From a virus (Duplodnaviria > Heunggongvirae > Uroviricota > Caudoviricetes), in IMG/VR virus record IMGVR_UViG_2695420589_000013: a stretch of DNA of 9,658 nucleotides, one strand, 5' to 3'. Of the stretch, positions 1-9,658 are shown in pieces; position 1 is the stretch's first letter; the number at the start of each line of letters is the position of its first letter. The position numbers and the translations under genes are program-made. Below the pieces are notes generated by a model, which was not told the origin of the DNA, searched no databases, and saw only the letters and a program-made list of their open reading frames with translations.

Positions 1-30
1 AAACACTATCAATAAGTTGGAGTCATTACC
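1..30 (+). mobile_element. Partial IS1 terminus: last 30 bp of an IS1 copy, ending in its terminal inverted repeat
   Basis: Sequence AAACACTATCAATAAGTTGGAGTCATTACC matches, from memory, the right end of IS1 (reverse complement GGTAATGACTCCAACTTATTGATAGTGTTT is the IS1 inverted repeat). The window begins inside the element. Confidence 0.75.
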
Positions 31-162
31 AAACGGTTGAAATGTATGCCGCTACTTACGGGTCCTGTAATCCTCTGAATAAACCAGAGGGAAAAGATGA
101 TTTCGACAAAATTTACCGCTTCTTGGAGGACCGCTATATCAAAAGCTTAGAGGACGCAGGGA

Positions 163-540
163 TCAAATCCCCAGTGAAGTCACCATTGTCCTGAGAACTT
201 GCAGAACGTCATGATCATAACTTCCATCCAAACCGCGACGGCGAATTGCTTCTCGTATTACCGGAAGCAGTTCGCTGGAAATCTCGGTGCATATTTCACC
301 TGATAATACGCTTGGCTCAAGTGAGAATATTGGTGAACTTACGGTCTTGGTCTCGACAGTTTCAGAGTCAGTGCCAACATTATAAAGCTCAACGAAAGCG
401 GTCTTGATTTTCCGGGCCAGATCTTTTGCTGGCTCGCTTGCAATATCTTTCCCGATTTCTCGCAGCACAGAATGCAATGTATGAGCTGCTGTTTTCTGTA
501 CATCAGACGGTAAATCTTTAAATTCCATCGTCAGCCTCAT
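163..540 (-). CDS. Hypothetical prophage early-left protein (125 aa; 121 aa if translation starts at the internal ATG at 528, which has a GAGG Shine-Dalgarno)
   Basis: Intact ORF whose ATG at 540-538 overlaps the stop of the upstream small gene (ATGA-type overlap), suggesting coupling. No recognisable catalytic motif. Function unknown. Confidence 0.55.
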   Translation of the reverse strand: MRLTMEFKDLPSDVQKTAAHTLHSVLREIGKDIASEPAKDLARKIKTAFVELYNVGTDSETVETKTVSSPIFSLEPSVLSGEICTEISSELLPVIREAIRRRGLDGSYDHDVLQVLRTMVTSLGI

Positions 541-692
541 CAGTCAGTGTTTCTGGCTAACCAGCAACGCGCGCCAGATTCGGTTTTAAACGTTTTGCTT
601 TTGGTATACGTCATGGCGGTAAACGTTCCATCCTGGTTAGGGAACACGCCGCACACCAGAGATTCGTTGTTGCCAAGATCGATAGTATCCAT
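540..692 (-). CDS. Small prophage protein (50 aa from ATG at 692), possibly YdaF-like
   Basis: ATG at 692-690 is preceded by GAGGT at about 5 nt spacing. The longer 68-aa version starting at 746 has no ribosome-binding site. The position left of the immunity region matches the small genes next to racR in Rac-type prophages; the YdaF resemblance is from memory and not verified. Confidence 0.45.
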   Translation of the reverse strand: MDTIDLGNNESLVCGVFPNQDGTFTAMTYTKSKTFKTESGARCWLARNTD

Positions 693-873
693 GCTGACCT
701 CATTTCCCCTTAACGCCGGGGTGGCGGAACAAAAAACCTGCTGCATAGTTAAAGATTGAACCCTGCCGTCATGTTCTTACGCCTCGGGCTGGCTACTTAA
801 CCCCTGACCACTGTCTGGTAACTCGAAGTATTGCCCTGCATTCTGTGGGGCGGGGTGGGTTGACGCCTGAAAC

Positions 874-914
874 AATAGCATCATTATTTTTTTGATGTAA
901 ATAGCATCGCTATT
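874..914. promoter_or_regulatory. Left operator-like cluster: two copies of a 15-bp imperfect palindrome AATAGCATCNNTATT (874-888 and 900-914)
   Basis: Seen directly: aatagcatcattatt (874-888) and aatagcatcgctatt (900-914), centres 26 bp apart. The same motif recurs at 2011-2025. TTGACG at 860-865 and promoter-like hexamers on the minus strand overlap the sites. Confidence 0.5.
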
Positions 915-928
915 GTTTTTTGTTGGGG

Positions 929-954
929 CAAGAAAAAACCACCCTAAGGTGGTT
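929..954 (-). terminator. Rho-independent terminator closing the leftward regulator-antitoxin-toxin operon
   Basis: Perfect 7-bp stem (937-943 aaccacc / 948-954 ggtggtt) with a 4-nt loop. On the plus strand it is preceded by an A-run at 931-937, which is a U-tract after the hairpin in the minus-strand transcript. It lies 17 bp past the toxin stop at 971. Confidence 0.55.
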
Positions 955-970
955 CTGTCGGCGGGAATAA

Positions 971-1261
971 TTAACTGTTTTTGCCTGGATACTGTCTTCG
1001 AGAATGCACAATATTTACTACTTCTATGCTTGATGCTGTTACTCGGTAAAGGATGATGTAGTTAGGATGAGTTACAATTTCACGAAGACCAAGAACTCGC
1101 TCGCTTGGAGGATACAGGTAAGGATGCTCTGTGAGCGGCAAAACGGATGTTTCAATTCGAATTTTCATTCTGCGTGCTGCCGCGGGATTTTCTTTAGCTA
1201 TGTAGGCTACGATCTGGCGCAAATCATCACGAGCAGATGGTAGCCATAAAACGGGTAACAT
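971..1261 (-). CDS. parE: Type II toxin, ParE/RelE superfamily (96 aa)
   Basis: Size and conserved C-terminal pattern typical of ParE/RelE toxins (…HPNYIILYRV…IEVVNIVHSRRQYP). The start codon overlaps the upstream antitoxin stop by 1 nt (TAATG at 1263-1259). Confidence 0.8.
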   Translation of the reverse strand: MLPVLWLPSARDDLRQIVAYIAKENPAAARRMKIRIETSVLPLTEHPYLYPPSERVLGLREIVTHPNYIILYRVTASSIEVVNIVHSRRQYPGKNS

Positions 1262-1455
1262 TATTCACCTCTGTGAGTTGCAGCAGCAATTTGGGCAATA
1301 ATTTGTTCCATTTCCGCCATTACCTCATCATGCGGAATCGCCGGGCGGGGATCCGCGAGGCTTGCTGCTACTTTGGCCCGCAGCCATTCGTTGTAACTAT
1401 TTTCTTGCTCAACTGTCTCAAATTCTGAAACCATTGGGGAAAGGACTGTACTCAT
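1261..1455 (-). CDS. paaA: Small acidic antitoxin (64 aa), PaaA-like partner of ParE
   Basis: GAGGAG ribosome-binding site 9 nt upstream of the ATG at 1455. Lies immediately upstream of the ParE gene and overlaps it. Size (about 63 aa) and the regulator-antitoxin-toxin order match the PaaR-PaaA-ParE three-component systems described in E. coli O157 prophages. Assigned from architecture, not alignment. Confidence 0.6.
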   Translation of the reverse strand: MSTVLSPMVSEFETVEQENSYNEWLRAKVAASLADPRPAIPHDEVMAEMEQIIAQIAAATHRGE

Positions 1456-1474
1456 TTTACATATCTCCTCTGAT

Positions 1475-2005
1475 TTAGGCGCGACGGCCTTTTTGTGCAG
1501 CTAACCACCGCGCAACCGTACGATCCATTGATTCTTTTTTATCTTTCATCTCCTGAAGCATGTGTTCTTGATCTTCTTTCGGAAAAGCTCTGAACGTATG
1601 GATTAAATCTCGTTCCATCGGCTCTACGGCAAACGGTAGTTCATCCTCTGTTTGTTCTGTGTCTGCTGGTAATGCGACTATGTTATCTTGCTGTGGTTCT
1701 CGACAATACATCCTTGCAATTTGCAGCAAATCTACCATGTCTGGCCTGATTGACTCAGGGGGAACTTTCAGTAAGCCAGCAAACTTTAGAACAGCCTCAA
1801 GGTTTAGTGGGGTTTGACCATTTAGGTAGTGACTTACCGCCCCTTGTGTTGAAAACCCCATAATTTCCGCCGCACGTTCCTGAGTCAATCCCAACTGAGA
1901 TTTCTTTGCCATCCAGATTTCTTTCAGTCTTCTGGCGGCGTTGAGGTCGGTGTCTGACAATGATTTTCTTTTCATACATCCAATTCTAATAAGATTGCTA
2001 ATCAC
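1475..2005 (-). CDS. paaR: HTH (XRE/cI-type) transcriptional regulator, 176 aa (166 aa if it starts at ATG 1975). Candidate PaaR-like regulator of the toxin-antitoxin operon and/or RacR-like prophage repressor. No S24 peptidase domain
   Basis: N-terminal helix-turn-helix signature (LTQERAAEIMGFSTQGAVSHYLNGQ). Transcribed divergently from the Cro-like gene and followed 19 nt later by the antitoxin gene on the same strand. The C-terminus is acidic and helical with no Ser/Lys autoprotease motif. Confidence 0.75.
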   Translation of the reverse strand: MISNLIRIGCMKRKSLSDTDLNAARRLKEIWMAKKSQLGLTQERAAEIMGFSTQGAVSHYLNGQTPLNLEAVLKFAGLLKVPPESIRPDMVDLLQIARMYCREPQQDNIVALPADTEQTEDELPFAVEPMERDLIHTFRAFPKEDQEHMLQEMKDKKESMDRTVARWLAAQKGRRA

Positions 2006-2010
2006 TTTGA

Positions 2011-2050
2011 AATAGCATCACTATTTACTTTTAAAAATAACAGTGCTATT
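2011..2050. promoter_or_regulatory. Right operator-like cluster in the divergent intergenic region: AATAGCATCACTATT (2011-2025) and related AATAACAGTGCTATT (2036-2050)
   Basis: Same 15-bp palindrome as at 874-914 with similar spacing (centres 25 bp apart). Located between the divergent regulator and Cro-like genes in an AT-rich region where promoters are expected. Confidence 0.5.
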
Positions 2051-2086
2051 AATTATGCATTGGTAACACATCACATAGGGCGGATT

Positions 2087-2350
2087 ATGAATCTTGGAGA
2101 ATATTTGCATCATTTTCATATAACCCAGAGTTCATTTGCTGAGATTGTTGGCGCATCCCAAGGGATGGTCAGCCACGTTATAACGGGGCGTGCAAAACTT
2201 ACAGGAGAAAAAATATTACGTTGGTGTGAAGCAACGGGATGGGTGGTGACCCCACATGAGATTGACAGTAAAACCTACCCCAACCCAACTGACGGCTTGC
2301 CTGCTGAGTTTCAGGCTAACACACAACCATCGGCGGGGGTTGATTCATGA
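2087..2350 (+). CDS. ydaS: Cro-like HTH protein, YdaS family (87 aa from ATG 2087; the ORF track opens at a TTG at 2060)
   Basis: Helix-turn-helix motif (QSSFAEIVGASQGMVSHVITGR). Divergent from the regulator. Stop overlaps the next gene start (ATGA at 2347-2350). Matches the racR-divergent ydaS-ydaT arrangement of Rac prophage. Confidence 0.7.
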   Translation: MNLGEYLHHFHITQSSFAEIVGASQGMVSHVITGRAKLTGEKILRWCEATGWVVTPHEIDSKTYPNPTDGLPAEFQANTQPSAGVDS

Positions 2351-2772
2351 AAATCAAGCATGAACACATCCGCATGGCGATGAAAGCCTGGGCGCATCCG
2401 GACGGTGAAAAAGTTCCGGCAGCTGAAATAACCAGGGTTTATTTCGAACTGGGAATGACGTTTCCGGTTCTGCATAACGACAGCAAGCACAACACGCTTT
2501 ATCTCAACACCCAAAAGATTTTCCGTTGGCTGGATAAAGACACCCCTGACGCTGTTGAAAAAATTCAGGCGTTGTTACCTGCGATCGAAAGGGCAATGCC
2601 ACCTCCGCTGGTGGCTCGAATGCGCAGCCACAGTTCAGCTTATTTTCGGGAACTGGTGGAGACGCATGAACGACTGGTGAGAGACGCTGATGATTTTGTC
2701 GCAGTGGCAATCGCCGGTTTCAATCAGATGAACCGTGGTGGCCCGGCAGGAAATGCTGTGGCAGTACATTGA
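2347..2772 (+). CDS. ydaT: YdaT-like protein (141 aa), the reported toxic partner of the YdaS/YdaT pair
   Basis: Translationally coupled to the Cro-like gene. Size and position match YdaT of Rac prophage (140 aa). Family assignment is from context and memory, not alignment. Confidence 0.6.
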   Translation: MKIKHEHIRMAMKAWAHPDGEKVPAAEITRVYFELGMTFPVLHNDSKHNTLYLNTQKIFRWLDKDTPDAVEKIQALLPAIERAMPPPLVARMRSHSSAYFRELVETHERLVRDADDFVAVAIAGFNQMNRGGPAGNAVAVH

Positions 2773-2843
2773 CTGACAATAGCCATATCGAATCGCTCCC
2801 GGCAACTCGTGAGTAAAAAGATTCGGTATCAGAAGAGGTGAGT

Positions 2844-3920
2844 ATGGCTAACGCCTGGCTCAGATTATGGCATGACATGCCAAATGACCCTAAGTGGCGA
2901 ACAATTGCCAGGGTGTCAGGGCAGCCAATTGCAACAGTGATGGCAGTGTATATCCACCTCCTGGTGAGCGCGTCACGAAATGTCACGCGAGGTCACATTG
3001 ATGTCACGACAGAAGATTTGGCAAGTGCGCTCGACGTGACAGAAGAGGTAATTGATTCAATTTTGCAGACGATGCAGGGGCGGGTACNNNNNNNNNNNNN
3101 NNNNNNNNTACTTGATGGTGATTTAATCACTGGATGGGAAAAACGCCAGGTGCTTAAAGAGGACAACGGCAATATTTCGCAAACCGCAAAATCTCCTGCA
3201 GAGCGCAAGAGGGCGCAGCGAGAGAGGGAAAGAAAGCGGGAACAAAATGGCGATTGTCACGGCGCGTCACGAAATGTCACGCACATGTCACGACGAGTCA
3301 CGACAGATACAGATAAAGATACAGATAAAGAAGATCAAAACACTATGGTCCATGGCGTAAAAAACGCCACGAACCAGGCAGGGGATGTTCAGACCGTCAA
3401 TCCTGGTCAGCCAGCAGGCTCGACACCGGAAGCCGATTCAGCGTATGCGCTGAAAGCCGATTCGGGCGCTGTGCAGCAGGTGATGACCGCAAGGCCGGAG
3501 CAATCACTCCAACTGCAGCAGCCTGAAGCCGATTCCGCCATTCAGCGGGAAGCCGATCGGGTAGCCCCGGAAAACACCGGGCAGCCTGTGGGACGAGTGG
3601 ATTATCCGGATGTGTTCGAACAGGTCTGGCGGGAATACCCGTTGCGTGCCGGGGCAAACCCGAAGAAATCCGCATTCAGTGCCTGGAAGGCCAGATTGCG
3701 CGAGGGGGTGCCACCAGAGACCATGCTGGATGGTGTGAGGCGTTACGCGAGATACCTGGCGGCGACCGGGAAAGCGGGAACGGAATTTGTTCAGCGAGNN
3801 NNNNNNNNNNNNNNNNNNNNNNNNNNNNNNNNNNNNNNNNNNNNNNNNNNNNNNNNNNNNNNNNNNNNNNNNNTTTTGGGCCGGACCGGAATTTTGAAAA
3901 CCCCTGGTTGCTCCCGGTAA
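2844..3920 (+). CDS. Phage replication initiator (YdaU/DUF1376-like, lambda O analogue). Boundaries uncertain because the ORF crosses two N-masked runs; the true stop may lie inside 3799-3873
   Basis: AAGAGG ribosome-binding site before ATG 2844. The N-terminus (MANAWLRLWHDMPNDPKWRTIARVSGQPIATVMAVYIHLL) is typical of DUF1376 replication proteins. Contains internal iteron clusters. Immediately precedes the DnaC-like loader gene. Confidence 0.55.
   Translation: MANAWLRLWHDMPNDPKWRTIARVSGQPIATVMAVYIHLLVSASRNVTRGHIDVTTEDLASALDVTEEVIDSILQTMQGRVXXXXXXXXLDGDLITGWEKRQVLKEDNGNISQTAKSPAERKRAQRERERKREQNGDCHGASRNVTHMSRRVTTDTDKDTDKEDQNTMVHGVKNATNQAGDVQTVNPGQPAGSTPEADSAYALKADSGAVQQVMTARPEQSLQLQQPEADSAIQREADRVAPENTGQPVGRVDYPDVFEQVWREYPLRAGANPKKSAFSAWKARLREGVPPETMLDGVRRYARYLAATGKAGTEFVQRXXXXXXXXXXXXXXXXXXXXXXXXXXLGRTGILKTPGCSR
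2968..3040. repeat. Iteron cluster 1 inside the initiator gene: GTCACG/GTCACA at 2972, 2982, 2992 and 3003 (10-11 bp spacing), plus an inverted copy CGTGAC at 3035-3040
   Basis: Counted directly. The 21-mer gcgcgtcacgaaatgtcacgc (2968-2988) is repeated exactly at 3262-3282. Confidence 0.55.
3088..3108. other. Run of 21 N (masked or unresolved sequence) inside the initiator gene
   Basis: Literal n characters. Length is a multiple of 3 and the reading frame is preserved across it. Confidence 0.99.
3256..3330. repeat. Iteron cluster 2 (putative replication origin): five GTCACG copies at 3256, 3266, 3276, 3287 and 3297 (helical-turn spacing), followed by a perfect tandem 12-bp duplication ATACAGATAAAG x2 (3307-3330)
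   Basis: Counted directly. The arrangement of iterons followed by a more AT-rich segment inside the initiator gene parallels lambda ori within gene O. Confidence 0.55.
3799..3873. other. Run of 75 N (masked or unresolved sequence) at the 3' end of the initiator gene
   Basis: Literal n characters. Length is a multiple of 3. The C-terminus of the initiator and any stop codon are hidden here. Confidence 0.99.
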
Positions 3921-4003
3921 GCGGCACGAACAACCAGCGTTGTGTGAATCATATTTCTGAACCGGATACCGAAATTCCGCCGGGATTCAGGGGGTGATGT
4001 GGC

Positions 4004-4750
4004 ATGAAAAACATTGCGGCAGCCGGGGTTCTTGAACGTATTCACAGACTTGCACCACAGGGGGCGGTTCCACCGTACCGGACGGTGGAGGAGTGGCGGG
4101 AATGGCAACTTGCTGAAGGACGAAAACGCAGCGAGGAGATTAACCGCCAGAATCGCCAGTTGCGGGTGGAAAAAATCCTGAATCGTTCGGGCATCCAGCC
4201 TCTGCACAGCAAATGCTCGTTTGCGAATTATCAGGTGCAGAACGACGGGCAAAAATACGCGCTGAGCCAGGCCAAATCCATAGCTGACGAACTGATGACC
4301 GGGTGCACGAATTTTGTGTTCAGCGGTAAAACCGGCACCGGGAAAAATCACCTTGCAGCGGCGATGGGTAACCGGCTGATGGCGAAGGGGCGCAGCGTGA
4401 TTATCGTCACCGAGTCTGATGTCATGAGCGTGTTGCATGACAGCTACGACAACGGCAAATCCGGTGAAAAATTTTTACAGGAGCTTTGCGGGGTTGATTT
4501 GCTGGTCCTGGATGAAATAGGCATTCAGCGGGAGACGAAAAACGAGCAGGTGGTATTGCACCAGATAATTGATCGCCGGACAGCATCACTGTGCAGTGTC
4601 GGGATGTTAACAAACCTGAATCATGCCGCAATGAGCACGCTTCTTGGTGAGAGGATTATGGACCGCATGACCATGAACGGTTGTCGGTGGGTGACGTTTA
4701 ACTGGGATAGCTGGCGTTCAAATGTCAGCTTTCCGGGAGTTGTGAAGTAA
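4004..4750 (+). CDS. DnaC-like helicase loader / replication protein (IstB-like AAA+ ATPase, 248 aa; lambda P analogue, YdaV-like)
   Basis: Walker A motif (FSGKTGTGKNHLAAA) and Walker B motif (DLLVLDEIG). Size and position after the initiator gene match DnaC-type loaders of lambdoid and Rac prophages. Confidence 0.85.
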   Translation: MKNIAAAGVLERIHRLAPQGAVPPYRTVEEWREWQLAEGRKRSEEINRQNRQLRVEKILNRSGIQPLHSKCSFANYQVQNDGQKYALSQAKSIADELMTGCTNFVFSGKTGTGKNHLAAAMGNRLMAKGRSVIIVTESDVMSVLHDSYDNGKSGEKFLQELCGVDLLVLDEIGIQRETKNEQVVLHQIIDRRTASLCSVGMLTNLNHAAMSTLLGERIMDRMTMNGCRWVTFNWDSWRSNVSFPGVVK

Positions 4751-4771
4751 TTTTTGTTGGAGGATGTTTTA

Positions 4772-5497
4772 ATGGAAACTGTATTTGACGCACTGAAAGC
4801 ACTGAAAAGAGCCTCTTCACATGTGGTGGCGTCCCGCCTTGGAATCAGCCGTGAAGATGCGGTCAACGAACTGTGGAAACTGAAGCGCCGTGGTGAAGCG
4901 GATAACAAGGGTTCGATGTGGTGGCTGATTCAGGCTGGTGAAAGTGAACCAGTGTCACCGGTACCGAAAGTGACAGCGCAAATGCTGACTGAGGCGATTG
5001 AACAACATGGCCCACAAACGGCGGATGAGCTGGCACTGATGTTCGGGATTACCTCCCGCCGGGCGAATTCATCGCTGGCCATGGCAATCAGCAAAGGGCG
5101 TCTGATTCGCGTGAATCAGGGCGGTAAATTTCGGTACTGCATACCGGGCGCTGATTTACCGGCAGAGCCGAAAGCCGCATCCATAGCGGAAACGGATGGT
5201 AAAGTCTTTCCTCAGCCAGCAGGTGTTGCGTTACCGGTACAGGAAGCTGCAACACAGGAAGAAATTAAAACAGAAACTGTGGCGGACATTGTGCAGTCGT
5301 TGCCATCGTTCACCGAAACGCAAGCGGATGACCTGGTTTTACCATCGCTGCATATGGCAAACCGCGAACTGCGTCGGGCGAAAAGTCATGTCCAGAAGTG
5401 GGAGCGTGTCTGCGCCGCGTTGCGGGAGCTGAACAAGCACCGGGATATTGTTCGACAGATTGTCGATTCCTCCGGTCGTATTGTGTCGGAAAAGTGA
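4772..5497 (+). CDS. Hypothetical phage protein with two winged-helix-like segments (241 aa from ATG 4772; the ORF track starts at an upstream TTG at 4754)
   Basis: GGAGG at 4759-4763, 8 nt before ATG 4772. Continuous ORF with coding-like composition. No catalytic motif recognised. Confidence 0.65.
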
Positions 5498-5512
5498 TTG
5501 CCGGGGGCGCTT

Positions 5513-5935
5513 ATGGCAAAAGTATTTACACAGGAAGAGCGGGAAAAAATTAAGGGGCAGGTTGTTGAACTCGTACGCCAGAGTGGGCGCGAGACGTTAC
5601 GACAACTGGAAGCTAAAACCGGGGCGACAAGATATTTAATAAGCGTTCTCGCCAGAGAGCTGGTTGCCAGTGGGGATGTATACAACTCTGGCTACGGGTT
5701 ATTCCCGTCTGAACAGGCTCGTAAGGACTGGCAAAACGCCCGCAAAAAACTCTCGAGGGCAAAGCTGAAGAAACCATCTGTGGTTGATCCGGACCTTATC
5801 TGGTCATTACCAGACGGAGAAATACGCCGCTACGACAGACATCAGAACATAATCTGTCGCGAGTGCCGGAAGAGTGAAGTTATGCAGCGTGTACCGGCTT
5901 TCTATCAGGGTGATTTTCAGGAGGCGGTACTGTGA
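5513..5935 (+). CDS. Hypothetical phage protein (140 aa from ATG 5513)
   Basis: ATG at 5513 follows a G-rich ribosome-binding region. Tightly packed after the previous gene. Stop overlaps the next ORF's GTG. No recognisable domain by eye. Confidence 0.6.
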   Translation: MAKVFTQEEREKIKGQVVELVRQSGRETLRQLEAKTGATRYLISVLARELVASGDVYNSGYGLFPSEQARKDWQNARKKLSRAKLKKPSVVDPDLIWSLPDGEIRRYDRHQNIICRECRKSEVMQRVPAFYQGDFQEAVL

Positions 5936-5992
5936 GTGAAATTAGCTATCAGGCTTCAATTACCGCTGGCATTCGCATCAAAGGAGAGGAGC

Positions 5993-6349
5993 ATGGAAAT
6001 AAAACCAGAAGATGAGTTAAGCAATATTGTTTTATTTCCGGTAAAAGAGGATAACCCTCGTAATCAGGTTAATTTTCTTTATGAGCCATCGGAAAGACCA
6101 TATTGCCATCACGCTTCTGTCCGGGTTGACGAAAAAGAGCGTCAGGTCCGCTGTAAAATTTGCGGTGCAGTTGTGGAGCCATTTGACTGGATGCTCTCTG
6201 TGGCGAAAAGAGAAACCAGACTGGCAGATGATGTAAGGCTCTTGCGCCAGGAGGAGCGGGAAAGGCGAAAAAATATAGAAAAGCTAATCCAGATTGAGCG
6301 TAATGCGAAAGCGCGGATACGCAGGGTGACAAAATATAGCCCCGAATAA
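5993..6349 (+). CDS. Hypothetical protein with a putative zinc-ribbon (C-x16-C-x2-C) and a basic coiled-coil C-terminus (118 aa from ATG 5993)
   Basis: Strong ribosome-binding site AAAGGAGAGG at 5980-5989, just before ATG 5993. Cysteine pattern PYCHH…RCKICG. C-terminus rich in R/E/K (RLLRQEERERRKNIEKLIQIERNAKARIRR). Confidence 0.6.
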   Translation: MEIKPEDELSNIVLFPVKEDNPRNQVNFLYEPSERPYCHHASVRVDEKERQVRCKICGAVVEPFDWMLSVAKRETRLADDVRLLRQEERERRKNIEKLIQIERNAKARIRRVTKYSPE

Positions 6350-6563
6350 TCAAGGTTATTTCTGGAAGTCAAGTCGTGAGTGATGAGGACTAACAAATAC
6401 GGTGAACTCGATAAAGAGATTCAGGACGAACTGGAGGCCAGGAATGATTGACAAATCACCAAGTGAGTTCAGCTACAAAGATTTATTGTCATAACGGGTT
6501 ATGAGATCGACTTGGTGCGTGATATTCTTCGGGCCAGTTTGCTATGCGCCACCATGAGATGTT

Positions 6564-8396
6564 ATGGCCCGCATGTTTGATACATTAGGATTTTACATTA
6601 TGAATGTGCAACATTTTGATTTTTTTACAGATAATGAGTTTTCTAATCTGGAAAGATATCAAACTTGTAAAGCCATGGCCAAAGGTTATGCGGGCAATTA
6701 CAAAACCGGGCAGTCAAGGTTGATGCATGCCCGCTCATACTGCTTCAGCATCGTAGCTGCATATTGGGATACCCTTGCAAAAAAGCAAAAAAGCAGCATT
6801 AAAATGAGGGCAGTACCGCACACTGTTTACATAGAAGACATTCCATGTGATGCACGCGAGCTCGCTGAACGAACAGGTGAGCTTATTGCTCAATTTCCGG
6901 CGGAGGACGCTGGATATCTGATTGGGTCAATTTATACGGTAATGCTGCCATCCGCTTACCGTTCGGAATTGGGGGCTTACTATACCCCCCCACCTTTGGT
7001 AGCGCGTCTCTTGGACCTGGCTGAAAAGTCTGGTGTTGATTTTTCTCATGCATCGGTTATTGATCCTGCGTGTGGTGGCGGTGCATTTTTGGCACCAGTA
7101 GCCATTCGAATGTTAAAAAAAGACAAGGGGTCTTCCCCTGAATGGATGTTGAGGAGAATCAGTCGTCGTTTAAAGGGGATAGAAATCGATCCATTTGCGG
7201 CTTGGATGAGTTTGGTATTGCTCGAATCTGTACTAATGCCACTATGTGTAAAGGTAAAACGTAGATTGCCTGAAGATACAATTATTGTTGCTGATGCGCT
7301 TCAGCAAGATAAATTTTCTGGTTATGATCTTGTGGTAGGGAATCCGCCTTACGGACGTGTCACTCTCGATATTAAAACGAGAGAAAAATATTCTCGTTCG
7401 TTATTTGGTCATGCAAATCTATATGGATTGTTCACCGACTTAGCTGTTCGCATGGTTAAAGAGAAAACAGGAGTTATTGCATTTCTTACGCCAACTTCTT
7501 TTCTTGGTGGGCAGTATTTCACCGCGCTGCGAACCCTTTTGACCGAAAAAACTACTCCGTATGCCCTTGATTTCGTCACTGACAGGGATGGGGTCTTTGA
7601 CGATGTTCTCCAGGAAACAATGTTGACAGCATTCAAGGCGGGAGAACATAAAGTTCGGGCCCAGGTATCCTCACTTGTCCCTAAGGGGTTGAACAAAGCA
7701 AAAATTGAGAAAATAGGTAATGTTGATATAGAAAAAGGTGGAGCAACGTGGCTTTTGCCACGCGTTAAAGATGATGCCTGTTTTCTTAATGTATTAAAAC
7801 AGATGTCTACGCGTTTAGCTGATCTGGGATACTCAGTCTCTACAGGTCAGTTAGTCTGGAATCGATTTAAGTCGCAGTTGCGTACGACGAAAGGAAAAAA
7901 TAGCTACCCATTAGTCTGGGCGGAATCAATAACTTCAGCTGGTTTTCGTTTTAGTGCAGACAGAAAAAATCATGTTCCCTATATCGATATAACCCCACAA
8001 CAGGGTTTCCTTGTGACAAAATCTGAATGTGTGCTTGTTCAGCGGACAACATCGAAGGAACAGGACAGAAGGATTTTAGCGGCAATTTTACCTCAGGGAT
8101 TTATAGATGAAACTGGTGGCGTAGTAGTTGAAAACCATATTAATATTGTATATTCAAACGGATTGTTCTCTGCGGTTCGCCCTGATGTTATTGATATGCT
8201 ACTTAATTCGCATGTTGTCGATCGGGCGTTCAGGTGTATAAGCGGAAGTGTTGCTGTTTCGGCCTATGAATTGAATTCAATCCCGTTGCCTTCTCTGGAG
8301 CAGGTGATGGAGATTCAATCGTTAATTGATGCTGGCGTCCACAGACGGATTATTGAGAGAACTATCGCTGGTTTCTATGGAGTGATGATTGCATGA
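6564..8396 (+). CDS. N6-adenine DNA methyltransferase, gamma class (Eco57I/TaqI-like catalytic domain plus a C-terminal target-recognition region), 610 aa. Start codon uncertain (alternatives at 6600, 6675, 6723)
   Basis: Motif X GAYYTPPP, motif I (AdoMet binding) VIDPACGGGAFL, and motif IV NPPYG (nt about 7338-7355) occur in the gamma-class order X-I-IV. Long C-terminal half consistent with a target-recognition domain. Stop overlaps the downstream gene (ATGA at 8393-8396). Confidence 0.85.
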   Translation: MARMFDTLGFYIMNVQHFDFFTDNEFSNLERYQTCKAMAKGYAGNYKTGQSRLMHARSYCFSIVAAYWDTLAKKQKSSIKMRAVPHTVYIEDIPCDARELAERTGELIAQFPAEDAGYLIGSIYTVMLPSAYRSELGAYYTPPPLVARLLDLAEKSGVDFSHASVIDPACGGGAFLAPVAIRMLKKDKGSSPEWMLRRISRRLKGIEIDPFAAWMSLVLLESVLMPLCVKVKRRLPEDTIIVADALQQDKFSGYDLVVGNPPYGRVTLDIKTREKYSRSLFGHANLYGLFTDLAVRMVKEKTGVIAFLTPTSFLGGQYFTALRTLLTEKTTPYALDFVTDRDGVFDDVLQETMLTAFKAGEHKVRAQVSSLVPKGLNKAKIEKIGNVDIEKGGATWLLPRVKDDACFLNVLKQMSTRLADLGYSVSTGQLVWNRFKSQLRTTKGKNSYPLVWAESITSAGFRFSADRKNHVPYIDITPQQGFLVTKSECVLVQRTTSKEQDRRILAAILPQGFIDETGGVVVENHINIVYSNGLFSAVRPDVIDMLLNSHVVDRAFRCISGSVAVSAYELNSIPLPSLEQVMEIQSLIDAGVHRRIIERTIAGFYGVMIA

Positions 8397-9475
8397 ATCT
8401 GCCTGTTGTTCCCCCATTGAATGTTATCCGGGAAAGATTACAATTAATTTTCCCTGAAGGGACTGAGAATCGTGGATATTTAATTCGGGAAATAGCTGCA
8501 AAAACAATTTTTGTCATGTTTTATGCTGGTGCGGTTGAGGGGCTGGGGCGATGGATAAGGCCCAGCCAGGTTGTAAGTATGGGAGATTCGCAGGCTGCTC
8601 TTACTGATGATGCGTCCAGAGAAAGCTGGGTAAAGATGACTTTCTCTAAACAAAAGATAAGGCCTGCTGATGCATGGTATGCGGAAAATACGCGTGAGCC
8701 AATACGTGATGAAACTATAAAAAATGGCCTAATACCTTGCAATGCAATTGTTGAGCGTAAAGGTATACCCACCACATCCTCTCGTCCTCGTTACAGTTTG
8801 AATCGCTCTTTTGCAGCACTCTTTGATGCCGGGCTTGAAGGAGATTCGCTGCTGAGTGCAATAAGTTCCTGGCAAGAAAATCATTTGAACAAAGCCGCTC
8901 TTGCTAGGTTGCGTTTATTGAAATCAGGGGCAGTGATTGCTGCTGATGCCGTAGTCGTCACTTTCCCAAATGGAGAGAAGAGAACTTTAGCTCCGGGCCC
9001 GTCAAGTACAATAGCTAAGGCCGTCATCGAAGTTTTTGCTCCTAATTTTCTTAAGAATCCAACTGTGCTCTGGTTGTCTGAATCCGGGAATAAAGTTGTT
9101 GCTCAGGATGATGTATTGGCAAAAGCATTGGGGCTGAATATTGATGCCTCAAAAGCACTTCCAGATATTATTTTGATTGATTTGGGAGAGGACCGAACGG
9201 GTTCGGACATGCTTGTAGTTTTCACTGAAGTAGTTGCGACAGATGGGCCTATAAACAGGGAACGAAAAGTTACTCTCACTCATTTGGCTATTGACGCTGG
9301 GTTCAGCGAGAAAAATCTTGCATTCCTTACGGCATTTATGGACAGAAGTGCTCTGCCTTTTAAAAAGGCAATACCAGAATTGGCGTGGGGATCTTATGCA
9401 TGGTTTGCTTCTGAACCGGAGCACTTAATTGATCTTCGGGATGGTTATCCGGTAAAGATCAGCCAGAGAAAATGA
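8393..9475 (+). CDS. Methyltransferase-coupled partner protein, 360 aa. Putative restriction endonuclease, possibly BsuBI/PstI-like. Function not provable from sequence alone
   Basis: Translationally coupled to the methyltransferase by a 4-bp overlap. Same low-GC composition. Size is typical of Type II restriction subunits. No canonical PD-(D/E)xK, HNH or GIY-YIG motif identified by eye. The BsuBI/PstI family guess is from recalled gene-neighbourhood patterns only. Confidence 0.55.
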   Translation: MNLPVVPPLNVIRERLQLIFPEGTENRGYLIREIAAKTIFVMFYAGAVEGLGRWIRPSQVVSMGDSQAALTDDASRESWVKMTFSKQKIRPADAWYAENTREPIRDETIKNGLIPCNAIVERKGIPTTSSRPRYSLNRSFAALFDAGLEGDSLLSAISSWQENHLNKAALARLRLLKSGAVIAADAVVVTFPNGEKRTLAPGPSSTIAKAVIEVFAPNFLKNPTVLWLSESGNKVVAQDDVLAKALGLNIDASKALPDIILIDLGEDRTGSDMLVVFTEVVATDGPINRERKVTLTHLAIDAGFSEKNLAFLTAFMDRSALPFKKAIPELAWGSYAWFASEPEHLIDLRDGYPVKISQRK

Positions 9476-9627
9476 CCAAAGTTTGATATCCGCCACGCCC
9501 TGAAGGATGGGGGTTTTACGGTGCACTGGATAAAAAATCGGTTTCATAGATTTGCCCACCGTGGTATACGCCTGCGATAAAAACTTTATTGTCATCAACG
9601 GCAAAAGCAATAATTGTTCTGTGGCGG

Positions 9628-9658
9628 GGTGATGCTGCCAACTTACTGATTTAGTGTA
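9628..9658 (+). mobile_element. Partial IS1 terminus: first 31 bp of an IS1 copy, starting with its terminal inverted repeat
   Basis: GGTGATGCTGCCAACTTACTGATTTAGTGTA matches the IS1 left end from memory. Same orientation as the IS1 fragment at 1-30. Confidence 0.75.

What the first reader, a model, noticed from the sequence alone, without database searches (positions are those of the whole stretch)
1..9658. Whole window bracketed by IS1 ends in direct orientation
Positions 1-30 are the last 30 bp of an IS1 and 9628-9658 are the first 31 bp of an IS1, both in the same orientation. The segment is therefore either a contig delimited by a collapsed IS1 repeat, an IS1-flanked composite unit that can transpose or delete by recombination, or a circular molecule carrying one IS1. 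Either flank may have truncated a prophage gene.
Basis: partly seen in the sequence, partly recalled or inferred. Interest (0 to 1): 0.5.

Follow-up and report, generated by a model that had tools for sequence, protein, structure and literature searches.

The report
IS1-bounded prophage remnant of Shigella sonnei
The window is a draft-assembly contig of a well-known Shigella sonnei chromosome region, a 9.6-kb leftover of a lambda-like prophage lying between two full IS1 copies, and it stops in IS1 at both ends only because short reads cannot assemble through this highly repeated element.

Summary
Bases 1-30 are the exact last 30 bp of IS1 and bases 9628-9658 are the exact first 31 bp, both on the + strand.

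The same 9.6-kb interior, with both junctions identical over 180 nt, occurs in at least 17 finished or near-finished S. sonnei-type chromosomes, including the reference Ss046 (CP000038). There each end runs into a separate full-length 768-bp IS1, so the window is a contig broken at a repeat. It is not a circle.

The interior is the early region of a lambdoid prophage integrated at ydfJ (the Qin site). It carries a three-gene toxin-antitoxin (TA) module of the PaaR2/PaaA2/ParE type, cro/YdaT, replication genes O and a DnaC-like ATPase, DUF1627, DUF977 and an intact PstI/BsuBI-type restriction-modification pair.

- **Left IS1:** a simple insertion. Its 9-bp target duplication AAACGGTTG is intact in 7 genomes, and it splits a small ORF.
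- **Right IS1:** it cuts a second ParE-type toxin gene at codon 67 and joins it to a point 48 bp upstream of ydfI. There is no duplication, so it is a deletion joint that removed the late prophage genes.

No evidence supports composite transposition. Comparison of genomes does show that a neighbouring IS1-bracketed 1,244-bp segment was lost twice by IS1-IS1 recombination. This is ordinary and already known.

The parts
1..30 (+). Last 30 bp (right inverted-repeat end) of the left-hand IS1 copy, called IS1(A) here; the contig begins here
   Evidence: Exact match to L002 1501-1530. It continues into a full 768-bp IS1 in finished genomes, e.g. L005 960-1727.
31..39 (+). AAACGGTTG, the 9-bp target site of IS1(A); the second copy lies on the far side of that IS1 in several finished genomes
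   Evidence: L007, L010, L011 and L017, L023 have ...AAACGGTTG|IS1|AAACGGTTG... L019 and L022 are counted with them because they show the same three-IS1 layout.
31..194 (+). 3' part of a small hypothetical prophage ORF split by IS1(A)
   Evidence: The ORF is intact (201 nt, about 66 codons, WP_000159335.1) in E. coli ETEC4090, L003 3964-4164. Its first 15 codons lie left of IS1(A) in L010.
163..540 (-). Hypothetical prophage protein (121-125 aa)
   Evidence: exact protein present in S. sonnei genomes; no Pfam or NCBIfam family.
540..746 (-). DUF1391 protein
   Evidence: Pfam PF07151, E 3e-28.
971..2005 (-). Three-gene toxin-antitoxin module: ParE-family toxin (971-1261), PaaA2-type antitoxin (1261-1455) and an HTH regulator in the repressor position (1475-2005)
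   Evidence: Pfam PF05016, PF21217, PF01381; NCBIfam RelB antitoxin and a DicA-like C-terminus.
2060..2772 (+). cro-like HTH protein (2060-2350) and YdaT-family protein (2347-2772)
   Evidence: same order as in annotated E. coli prophages.
2844..3997 (+). Phage replisome organizer (O-like) gene, interrupted in the window by two runs of N
   Evidence: Annotated as 'phage replisome organizer' in L001. It is 354 aa in finished genomes. Window coordinates were derived from the L004 offsets.
3088..3108 (.). Run of 21 N; together with a repeated TAC it adds 24 bases relative to finished genomes. An assembly or masking artefact.
3799..3873 (.). Run of 75 N standing where finished genomes have the 10 bases CGACGACGTT; it breaks the O reading frame. 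An artefact.
4004..4750 (+). DnaC/IstB-like replication ATPase
   Evidence: Pfam PF01695, PF00308.
4754..6349 (+). DUF1627 protein, DUF977 protein and a small hypothetical protein with a weak (sub-threshold) zinc-ribbon match
6564..8396 (+). N6-adenine DNA methyltransferase of a PstI/BsuBI-type type II restriction-modification pair (610 aa, intact)
   Evidence: Pfam PF07669, PF02384; annotated in L001.
8393..9475 (+). BsuBI/PstI-family restriction endonuclease (360 aa, intact)
   Evidence: Pfam PF06616, PF17728. The identical protein is found in all ten loci returned (L004-L013).
9516..9627 (-). 3' remnant (last 36 codons plus stop) of a second ParE/RelE-family toxin gene, cut at codon 67 of 103 by the right-hand IS1
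   Evidence: The translation equals the C-terminus of the intact 103-aa toxin of L008 11124-11435.
9628..9658 (+). First 31 bp (left inverted-repeat end) of the right-hand IS1 copy; the contig ends here
   Evidence: Exact match to L002 763-793. It continues into a full IS1 at 11236-12003 of L004-L012.

Best explanation
The window is a short-read draft contig (a small scaffold) of the Shigella sonnei chromosome. It covers what survives of a lambdoid prophage integrated at ydfJ: the immunity and replication region plus a restriction-modification pair. In the real chromosome this remnant lies between two separate, full-length, directly oriented IS1 copies. S. sonnei carries IS1 in very many copies, so the assembler could only enter each copy by about k-1 bases, which gives the 30- and 31-bp IS1 stubs.

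The left IS1 is a simple insertion with a 9-bp target duplication. The right IS1 is a deletion joint. It entered a ParE-type toxin gene, and then everything from there to just upstream of ydfI was lost, either by IS1-mediated adjacent deletion or by recombination with a second IS1. The lost material includes ParD, DUF968, RusA, Q, the lysis and structural genes, and the ydfJ fragment.

Shown here: the IS1 identity, the two full copies, the target duplication, the truncations and the chromosomal context. Inferred: the type of assembler, and which of the two deletion routes made the right joint.
For: - **IS1 ends:** both ends are exact.
- **Junctions in finished genomes:** both 180-nt junctions are exact in the eight chromosome-scale records (>1 Mb) L004-L007 and L009-L012, and each leads into a 768-bp IS1 on the + strand. 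Nine further loci, L016-L024, give the same picture. Two of these come from the same records as L004 and L006, so 15 distinct records were inspected directly. They include CP000038 (S. sonnei Ss046) and CP104423, whose neighbouring accession is a plasmid of S. sonnei strain 1527837.
- **Interior:** sampled interior 200-mers are exact.
- **Left IS1:** target duplication read in L007, L010, L011, L017 and L023.
- **Right IS1:** its outer flank lies 48 bp upstream of the ydfI start, and its inner flank lies inside the parE-like gene.
- **Intact relatives:** intact prophages show the missing right arm (L001, L008) and a prophage late region abutting ydfJ'-ydfI (L015).
- **Contig sizes:** of the index blocks holding the 121-aa ORF, 1726 of 2372 have their longest contig in the 5-10 kb class. 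L025 is an independent 9,411-bp draft contig with the same interior that stops 4 and about 93 nt short of the two IS1 copies.
Against: - The source record of the window was not identified, so its assembler and k are unknown.
- The two stubs differ by one base (30 against 31). This is only loosely explained, by different chance sharing of flanking bases among IS1 copies.
- The two N runs are longer than the sequence they replace. This fits scaffold gaps or masking but was not proven.
Confidence: 0.93

Rival explanations
1. The segment is an active IS1 composite transposon of the Tn9 type, which moves as a unit using the outer ends of the two direct IS1 copies and carries the restriction-modification and toxin-antitoxin genes as cargo.
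For: Two full-length IS1 copies in direct orientation bracket the segment, and both have called transposase ORFs. This is the same architecture as Tn9 (established knowledge).
Against: - No 9-bp duplication lies outside the pair. The left outer flank is AAACGGTTG, CACGGGTCG or ACCGGAAA-type, and the right outer flank is CATATAACA.
- The left IS1 has its own duplication, so it inserted alone.
- The cargo is colinear with the intact prophage at the ancestral ydfJ site.
- No plasmid or complete E. coli genome holds 80% or more of the unit.
Confidence: 0.03
2. The window is a circular molecule, either a plasmid or an excised circle, that carries one IS1. The two stubs would then be the two ends of the same copy.
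For: - A contig that starts with the end of a repeat and ends with its start is what a circle with one repeat copy would give.
- The segment contains a phage replication module (O, a DnaC-like ATPase and iteron-like repeats at 3255-3331), so a lambda-dv-like replicon is conceivable.
Against: - The inner flanks AAACGGTTG and CTGTGGCGG are not a target duplication.
- Every chromosome-scale record examined places the segment in the chromosome between two IS1 copies with different outer flanks.
- No plasmid record covers the unit.
Confidence: 0.03
3. The window is a chimeric scaffold whose pieces, separated by the N runs, and whose ends are unlinked in the real genome.
For: Two internal N runs whose lengths do not match the real sequence.
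Against: The order, orientation and sequence of all three pieces match the finished chromosomes, and both junctions are exact.
Confidence: 0.01

Closest known systems
IS1 expansion in Shigella and IS-mediated genome decay (Hawkey et al. 2020, PMC7373316; Ss046 genome CP000038)
   Same: IS1 is the most abundant IS. It interrupts genes and mediates deletions between homologous copies, and short reads cannot assemble across it. The locus itself is present in the Ss046 reference.
   Different: Nothing of substance. This is one instance of the described process.
Tn9-type IS1 composite transposons
   Same: Two direct IS1 copies flank a cargo segment.
   Different: There is no duplication around the whole unit and no second location. 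One IS1 has its own duplication, and the cargo is native prophage DNA in its ancestral position.
Cryptic lambdoid prophages Qin and Rac of E. coli K-12 and related prophages integrated at ydfJ
   Same: Gene content and order: DUF1391, repressor/cro, YdaT, O, DnaC-like ATPase, DUF1627, DUF977. The position next to ydfJ/ydfI is also shared.
   Different: Here both arms were removed by IS1. The nin-region cargo is a PstI/BsuBI-type restriction-modification pair plus a ParDE module, of which only a toxin fragment remains.
paaR2-paaA2-parE2 three-component toxin-antitoxin module of E. coli O157:H7 prophages (recalled from the literature, not tested beyond Pfam)
   Same: A ParE-family toxin, a PaaA2-family antitoxin and an HTH regulator in the same order.
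   Different: Function was not tested. It is only a passenger of the segment.

Membership tests
IS1 (the terminal stubs) | Imperfect 23-bp terminal inverted repeats GGTGATGCTGCCAACTTACTGAT / GGTAATGACTCCAACTTATTGAT | tested here: met
   both repeats found at the two window ends, none elsewhere, 0 expected by chance.
IS1 (the terminal stubs) | Identity to an annotated IS1, and continuation into a 768-bp element encoding InsA/InsB | tested here: met
   (L002). Searches show full copies with Zn_ribbon_InsA, HTH_Tnp_IS1 and DDE_Tnp_IS1 ORFs in finished genomes.
IS1 (the terminal stubs) | 9-bp target-site duplication | tested here: met
   Left copy: AAACGGTTG on both sides in L007, L010, L011, L017 and L023. 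Right copy: none, because it is a deletion joint.
IS1 composite transposon (Tn9-like) | Two IS1 copies bracketing a cargo | tested here: met
IS1 composite transposon (Tn9-like) | 9-bp duplication immediately outside the two IS1 copies | tested here: not met
   The outer flanks differ in every configuration.
IS1 composite transposon (Tn9-like) | The same unit present at more than one genomic site or replicon | tested here: not met
   In every locus that carries the flanking IS1 copies the unit lies next to ydfI. No match of 80% or more in plasmids or complete E. coli genomes.
Lambdoid prophage integrated at ydfJ (Qin site) | Colinear early-region gene order shared with intact prophages | tested here: met
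   L001, L003, L008.
Lambdoid prophage integrated at ydfJ (Qin site) | Chromosomal neighbours ydfJ'/ydfI-ydfZ-rspR-ydfG-dcp on the late-gene side | tested here: met
   ydfJ itself is deleted in S. sonnei.
Lambdoid prophage integrated at ydfJ (Qin site) | Integrase, excisionase, and lysis and structural genes (a complete prophage) | tested here: not met
   They are absent from the window and from the S. sonnei flanks. This is a remnant only.
Type II restriction-modification system, PstI/BsuBI family | Adjacent methyltransferase and BsuBI/PstI endonuclease genes, both intact | tested here: met
   ORFs of 610 and 360 aa.
Type II restriction-modification system, PstI/BsuBI family | CTGCAG-specific cleavage and methylation | not testable with these tools
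   Needs a methylome or an enzyme assay.

The most novel reading that the evidence does not exclude
The 9.6-kb IS1-bracketed remnant may have survived the stepwise IS1 erosion around it because it carries addiction-type modules: an intact PstI-like restriction-modification pair and a ParE/PaaA2 toxin-antitoxin module. Recombination between its two direct IS1 copies could then release a 10.4-kb circle that still has a phage O/DnaC-type replication module, making it a lambda-dv-like replicon. The evidence here does not exclude this, and nothing here supports it directly.
Probability: 0.05. Interest if true: 0.4.

Novelty: already known. Interest (0 to 1): 0.08.

Why it matters
It matters little beyond housekeeping. 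It shows that this window's IS1 brackets are a consequence of repeat-limited assembly of a region already present in the S. sonnei Ss046 reference, and not a new mobile element or plasmid. The comparison of finished genomes gives a clean worked example of stepwise prophage erosion by IS1: a simple insertion, a deletion joint, and two independent IS1-IS1 recombination deletions of a neighbouring segment. The general process is already described for Shigella.

Tried and rejected
- **Searches for the source record.** Two exact-pattern scans of genome contigs found nothing. One looked for the left junction. The other looked for a hypothetical ancestral 'IS1 + CTGTGGCGG + rest of parE' junction that would prove a simple insertion at the right side. 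The source record and the ancestral right-hand insertion therefore remain unidentified.
- **Naming the organisms.** A paper search for six chromosome accessions returned nothing. Neighbouring-accession look-ups failed for three of four. One succeeded and tied CP104423 to S. sonnei. CP000038 was tied to Ss046 through the literature.
- **Whole-length alignment.** The Python sandbox did not receive the 'assemblies' loci. A full alignment of the window to a finished genome was therefore replaced by exact 180-200-nt probes and local alignments.
- **Structured RNA.** Rfam found none in the window.
- **Single-IS1 circle.** Considered and rejected because the inner 9-mers differ.
- **Composite transposon.** Considered and rejected on the duplication and location tests.
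- **Exact assembler k.** I considered inferring it from the 30/31-bp stubs and dropped the idea. With well over a hundred IS1 copies, chance sharing of flanking bases shifts the break point by a few bases.
Full report
**1. Observation.** The window starts with AAACACTATCAATAAGTTGGAGTCATTACC and ends with GGTGATGCTGCCAACTTACTGATTTAGTGTA. In an annotated IS1 (IS1B-family transposase, plasmid NZ_CP075482, locus L002) the element spans 763-1530. The second string is its first 31 bases and the first string is its last 30 bases, both on the strand that encodes the transposase. A degenerate IS1 inverted-repeat pattern hits only these two places in the window, with 0.00 expected in shuffles. Roughly a thousand plasmid records match just these termini, many under IS1 annotations.

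**2. What lies between.** The interior (31-9627) is the early region of a lambdoid prophage. Reading left to right it contains:
- the 3' part of a small ORF;
- a 121-125-aa hypothetical gene and a DUF1391 gene;
- a ParE-toxin / PaaA2-antitoxin / HTH-regulator module on the minus strand;
- a cro-like HTH gene and a YdaT-family gene;
- a replisome-organizer (O-like) gene and a DnaC/IstB-like ATPase gene;
- DUF1627, DUF977 and a small protein with a weak, sub-threshold zinc-ribbon match;
- an N6-adenine methyltransferase (610 aa) overlapping a BsuBI/PstI-family endonuclease (360 aa);
- the last 36 codons of a second ParE/RelE-type toxin gene.

Annotated E. coli prophages show the same order. They also show what is missing: integrase, excisionase, exonuclease, ydfD and dicB on the left (L003), and ParD, DUF968, RusA, Q, tRNAs, lysis genes and terminase on the right (L001 and L008). 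No complete E. coli genome, phage or plasmid record covers 80% or more of the window.

**3. Where it sits.** Exact-protein look-ups with the endonuclease and with the 121-aa ORF returned 17 chromosome-scale records of 4.78-5.03 Mb. Fifteen of them carry the IS1-flanked unit. L008 is the exception and holds the intact prophage. Among them:
- CP000038.1 is the S. sonnei Ss046 reference.
- CP104423.1 has as its neighbouring accession a plasmid of S. sonnei strain 1527837.

In eight of these records the two 180-nt junction sequences of the window are present without a mismatch. Sampled interior 200-mers are exact in most or all of them. In every one, each window end continues into a separate full-length IS1. 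All IS1 copies run in the same direction and have called InsA/InsB ORFs. So the physical structure is IS1 - 9.5 kb - IS1 on the chromosome, not a circle.

**4. Left junction.** In L007, L010 and L011, and in L017 and L023, the sequence reads ...TTTGATAAAACGGTTG | IS1 | AAACGGTTGAAATG... This is an intact 9-bp duplication, so IS1(A) is a simple insertion. It lies after codon 15 of a small ORF that is intact (201 nt, about 66 codons) in E. coli ETEC4090. L019 and L022 have the same three-IS1 layout, which gives seven genomes with this configuration.

**5. Right junction.** The inner flank CTGTGGCGG lies inside a 103-codon ParE/RelE-type toxin gene, which is intact in L008. The window keeps only RHRTIIAFAVDDNKVFIAGVYHGGQIYETDFLSSAP*. 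The outer flank, CATATAACAAAACATATAG..., is the region 48 bp upstream of the ydfI start.

In E. coli 90-3040, a lambdoid prophage's tail genes abut a truncated ydfJ, which is followed by ydfI, ydfZ, rspR, ydfG and dcp. S. sonnei has the same chromosomal genes to the right of the IS1. There is no duplication. The right IS1 is therefore a deletion joint that removed the late half of the prophage and the ydfJ fragment. Whether this was an IS1 adjacent deletion or recombination with a second IS1 cannot be told from the product.

**6. An erosion series next door.**
- **L023 (CP026802).** It has the window, then IS1(A), then 1,244 bp carrying a Rha/ASH gene, then IS1(B) with its own intact duplication TTTCCGGTT. 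After that come dicB, DUF1482, a ydfE fragment, an IS3-family element, ynfE' and ynfF.
- **L005 (CP032523).** A single IS1 joins the window directly to TTTCCGGTTTTATCTGG... This is the product of A x B recombination.
- **L017, L019, L022.** IS1(B) instead abuts a ynfF fragment, CGACCCGTGATGG....
- **Ss046 and the others** (L004/L016, L006/L018, L009, L012, L020, L021, L024). A single IS1 joins the window to that same ynfF fragment.

Recombination between direct IS1 copies has therefore deleted the neighbouring 1,244-bp segment at least twice. The 9.6-kb segment itself is retained in every finished genome I saw.

**7. [quoted passage not shown] Three IS1 copies occur within 21 kb of this locus alone.
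- Of the index blocks that hold the 121-aa ORF, 1726 of 2372 have their longest contig in the 5-10 kb class.
- For the endonuclease, 2158 of 4192 are in the 5-10 kb class and 1661 in the 2-5 kb class.
- L025 is an independent whole contig of 9,411 bp with the same interior. It ends 4 and about 93 nt before the IS1 copies.

A stub of about 30 bases is what a de Bruijn-graph assembler leaves at a repeat boundary, roughly k-1 bases. This is an inference. I could not identify the source record or its assembler.

**8. The N runs.** At 3088-3108 the window reads TAC-N21-TAC where finished genomes have one TAC. At 3799-3873, 75 N stand in place of CGACGACGTT, which shifts the O reading frame. The flanking sequence is otherwise identical and colinear. 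These are scaffold gaps or masking, not biology, and they further mark the window as a draft scaffold.

**9. Alternatives.**
- **Composite transposon.** It fails two defining tests: there is no duplication outside the pair and no second location. It also conflicts with the left IS1's own duplication.
- **Single-IS1 circle.** It fails because the inner flanks differ and the locus is chromosomal.
- **Chimeric scaffold.** It is excluded by colinearity with finished genomes.

The only non-trivial idea left is that the intact restriction-modification pair and the toxin-antitoxin module have protected this remnant from the IS1-mediated loss that removed everything around it. A related idea is that IS1-IS1 recombination could release a lambda-dv-like circle. 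Neither has support here.

**10. Verdict.** The finding is real but ordinary. It is a repeat-bounded draft contig of a region that is already in the S. sonnei reference genome and that has been shaped by well-described IS1 insertion and deletion. Novelty: already known. Interest: low.

Noticed in passing
window 3088-3108 and 3799-3873: Two runs of N inside the O-like replication gene are longer than the sequence they replace in finished S. sonnei genomes (net +24 and +65 bases). The first is flanked by a repeated TAC, and the second breaks the reading frame. They are probably scaffold gaps or database masking.
   Followed up: partly
window 3255-3331: Tandem 10-12-bp repeats (TGTCACGACA x5, AGATACAGATAA x2) inside the O-like gene. 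This is where lambdoid phages place their origin iterons.
   Followed up: no
window 971-2005 (minus strand): A ParE-family toxin, a PaaA2-family antitoxin and an HTH regulator form a three-gene module resembling paaR2-paaA2-parE2. The regulator sits in the position of the prophage repressor and has a DicA-like C-terminus.
   Followed up: partly
window 6564-9475; L006/L018/L020 and L010/L012/L017/L019: The PstI/BsuBI-type restriction-modification pair is intact in the window. In some long-read genomes the methyltransferase is called as 428+133 aa or as 598 aa while the endonuclease stays intact. This may be a homopolymer sequencing error or real inactivation of the methyltransferase.
   Followed up: no
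L004 20226-20994 (and the same place in L005-L012): A further IS1 in the same orientation lies 8.2 kb to the right of the right-hand IS1, just before a glycosyl-hydrolase gene. The ydfI-dcp block is therefore itself bracketed by direct IS1 copies.
   Followed up: no
L021 (CP049185.1) 11299-20366: After the ynfF fragment and a 37-aa ynfG stub, this genome continues into AntA, Bro-N and Ead/Ea22 phage genes instead of ynfH and dmsD. This indicates another rearrangement at this locus.
   Followed up: no
plasmid record NZ_CP148542.1 (15,977 bp): A small circular 'plasmid' record from a dog E. coli carries the lambdoid DnaC-like/DUF1627/DUF977 region at about 91% identity to the window. It could be a lambda-dv-like replicon or a misassigned contig.
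   Followed up: no
window 700-899: This 200-mer, which ends in a T-run, is exact in only 3 of the 8 finished loci, while other probes match all 8. The one-base coordinate offsets between loci suggest homopolymer length differences in long-read assemblies.
   Followed up: no
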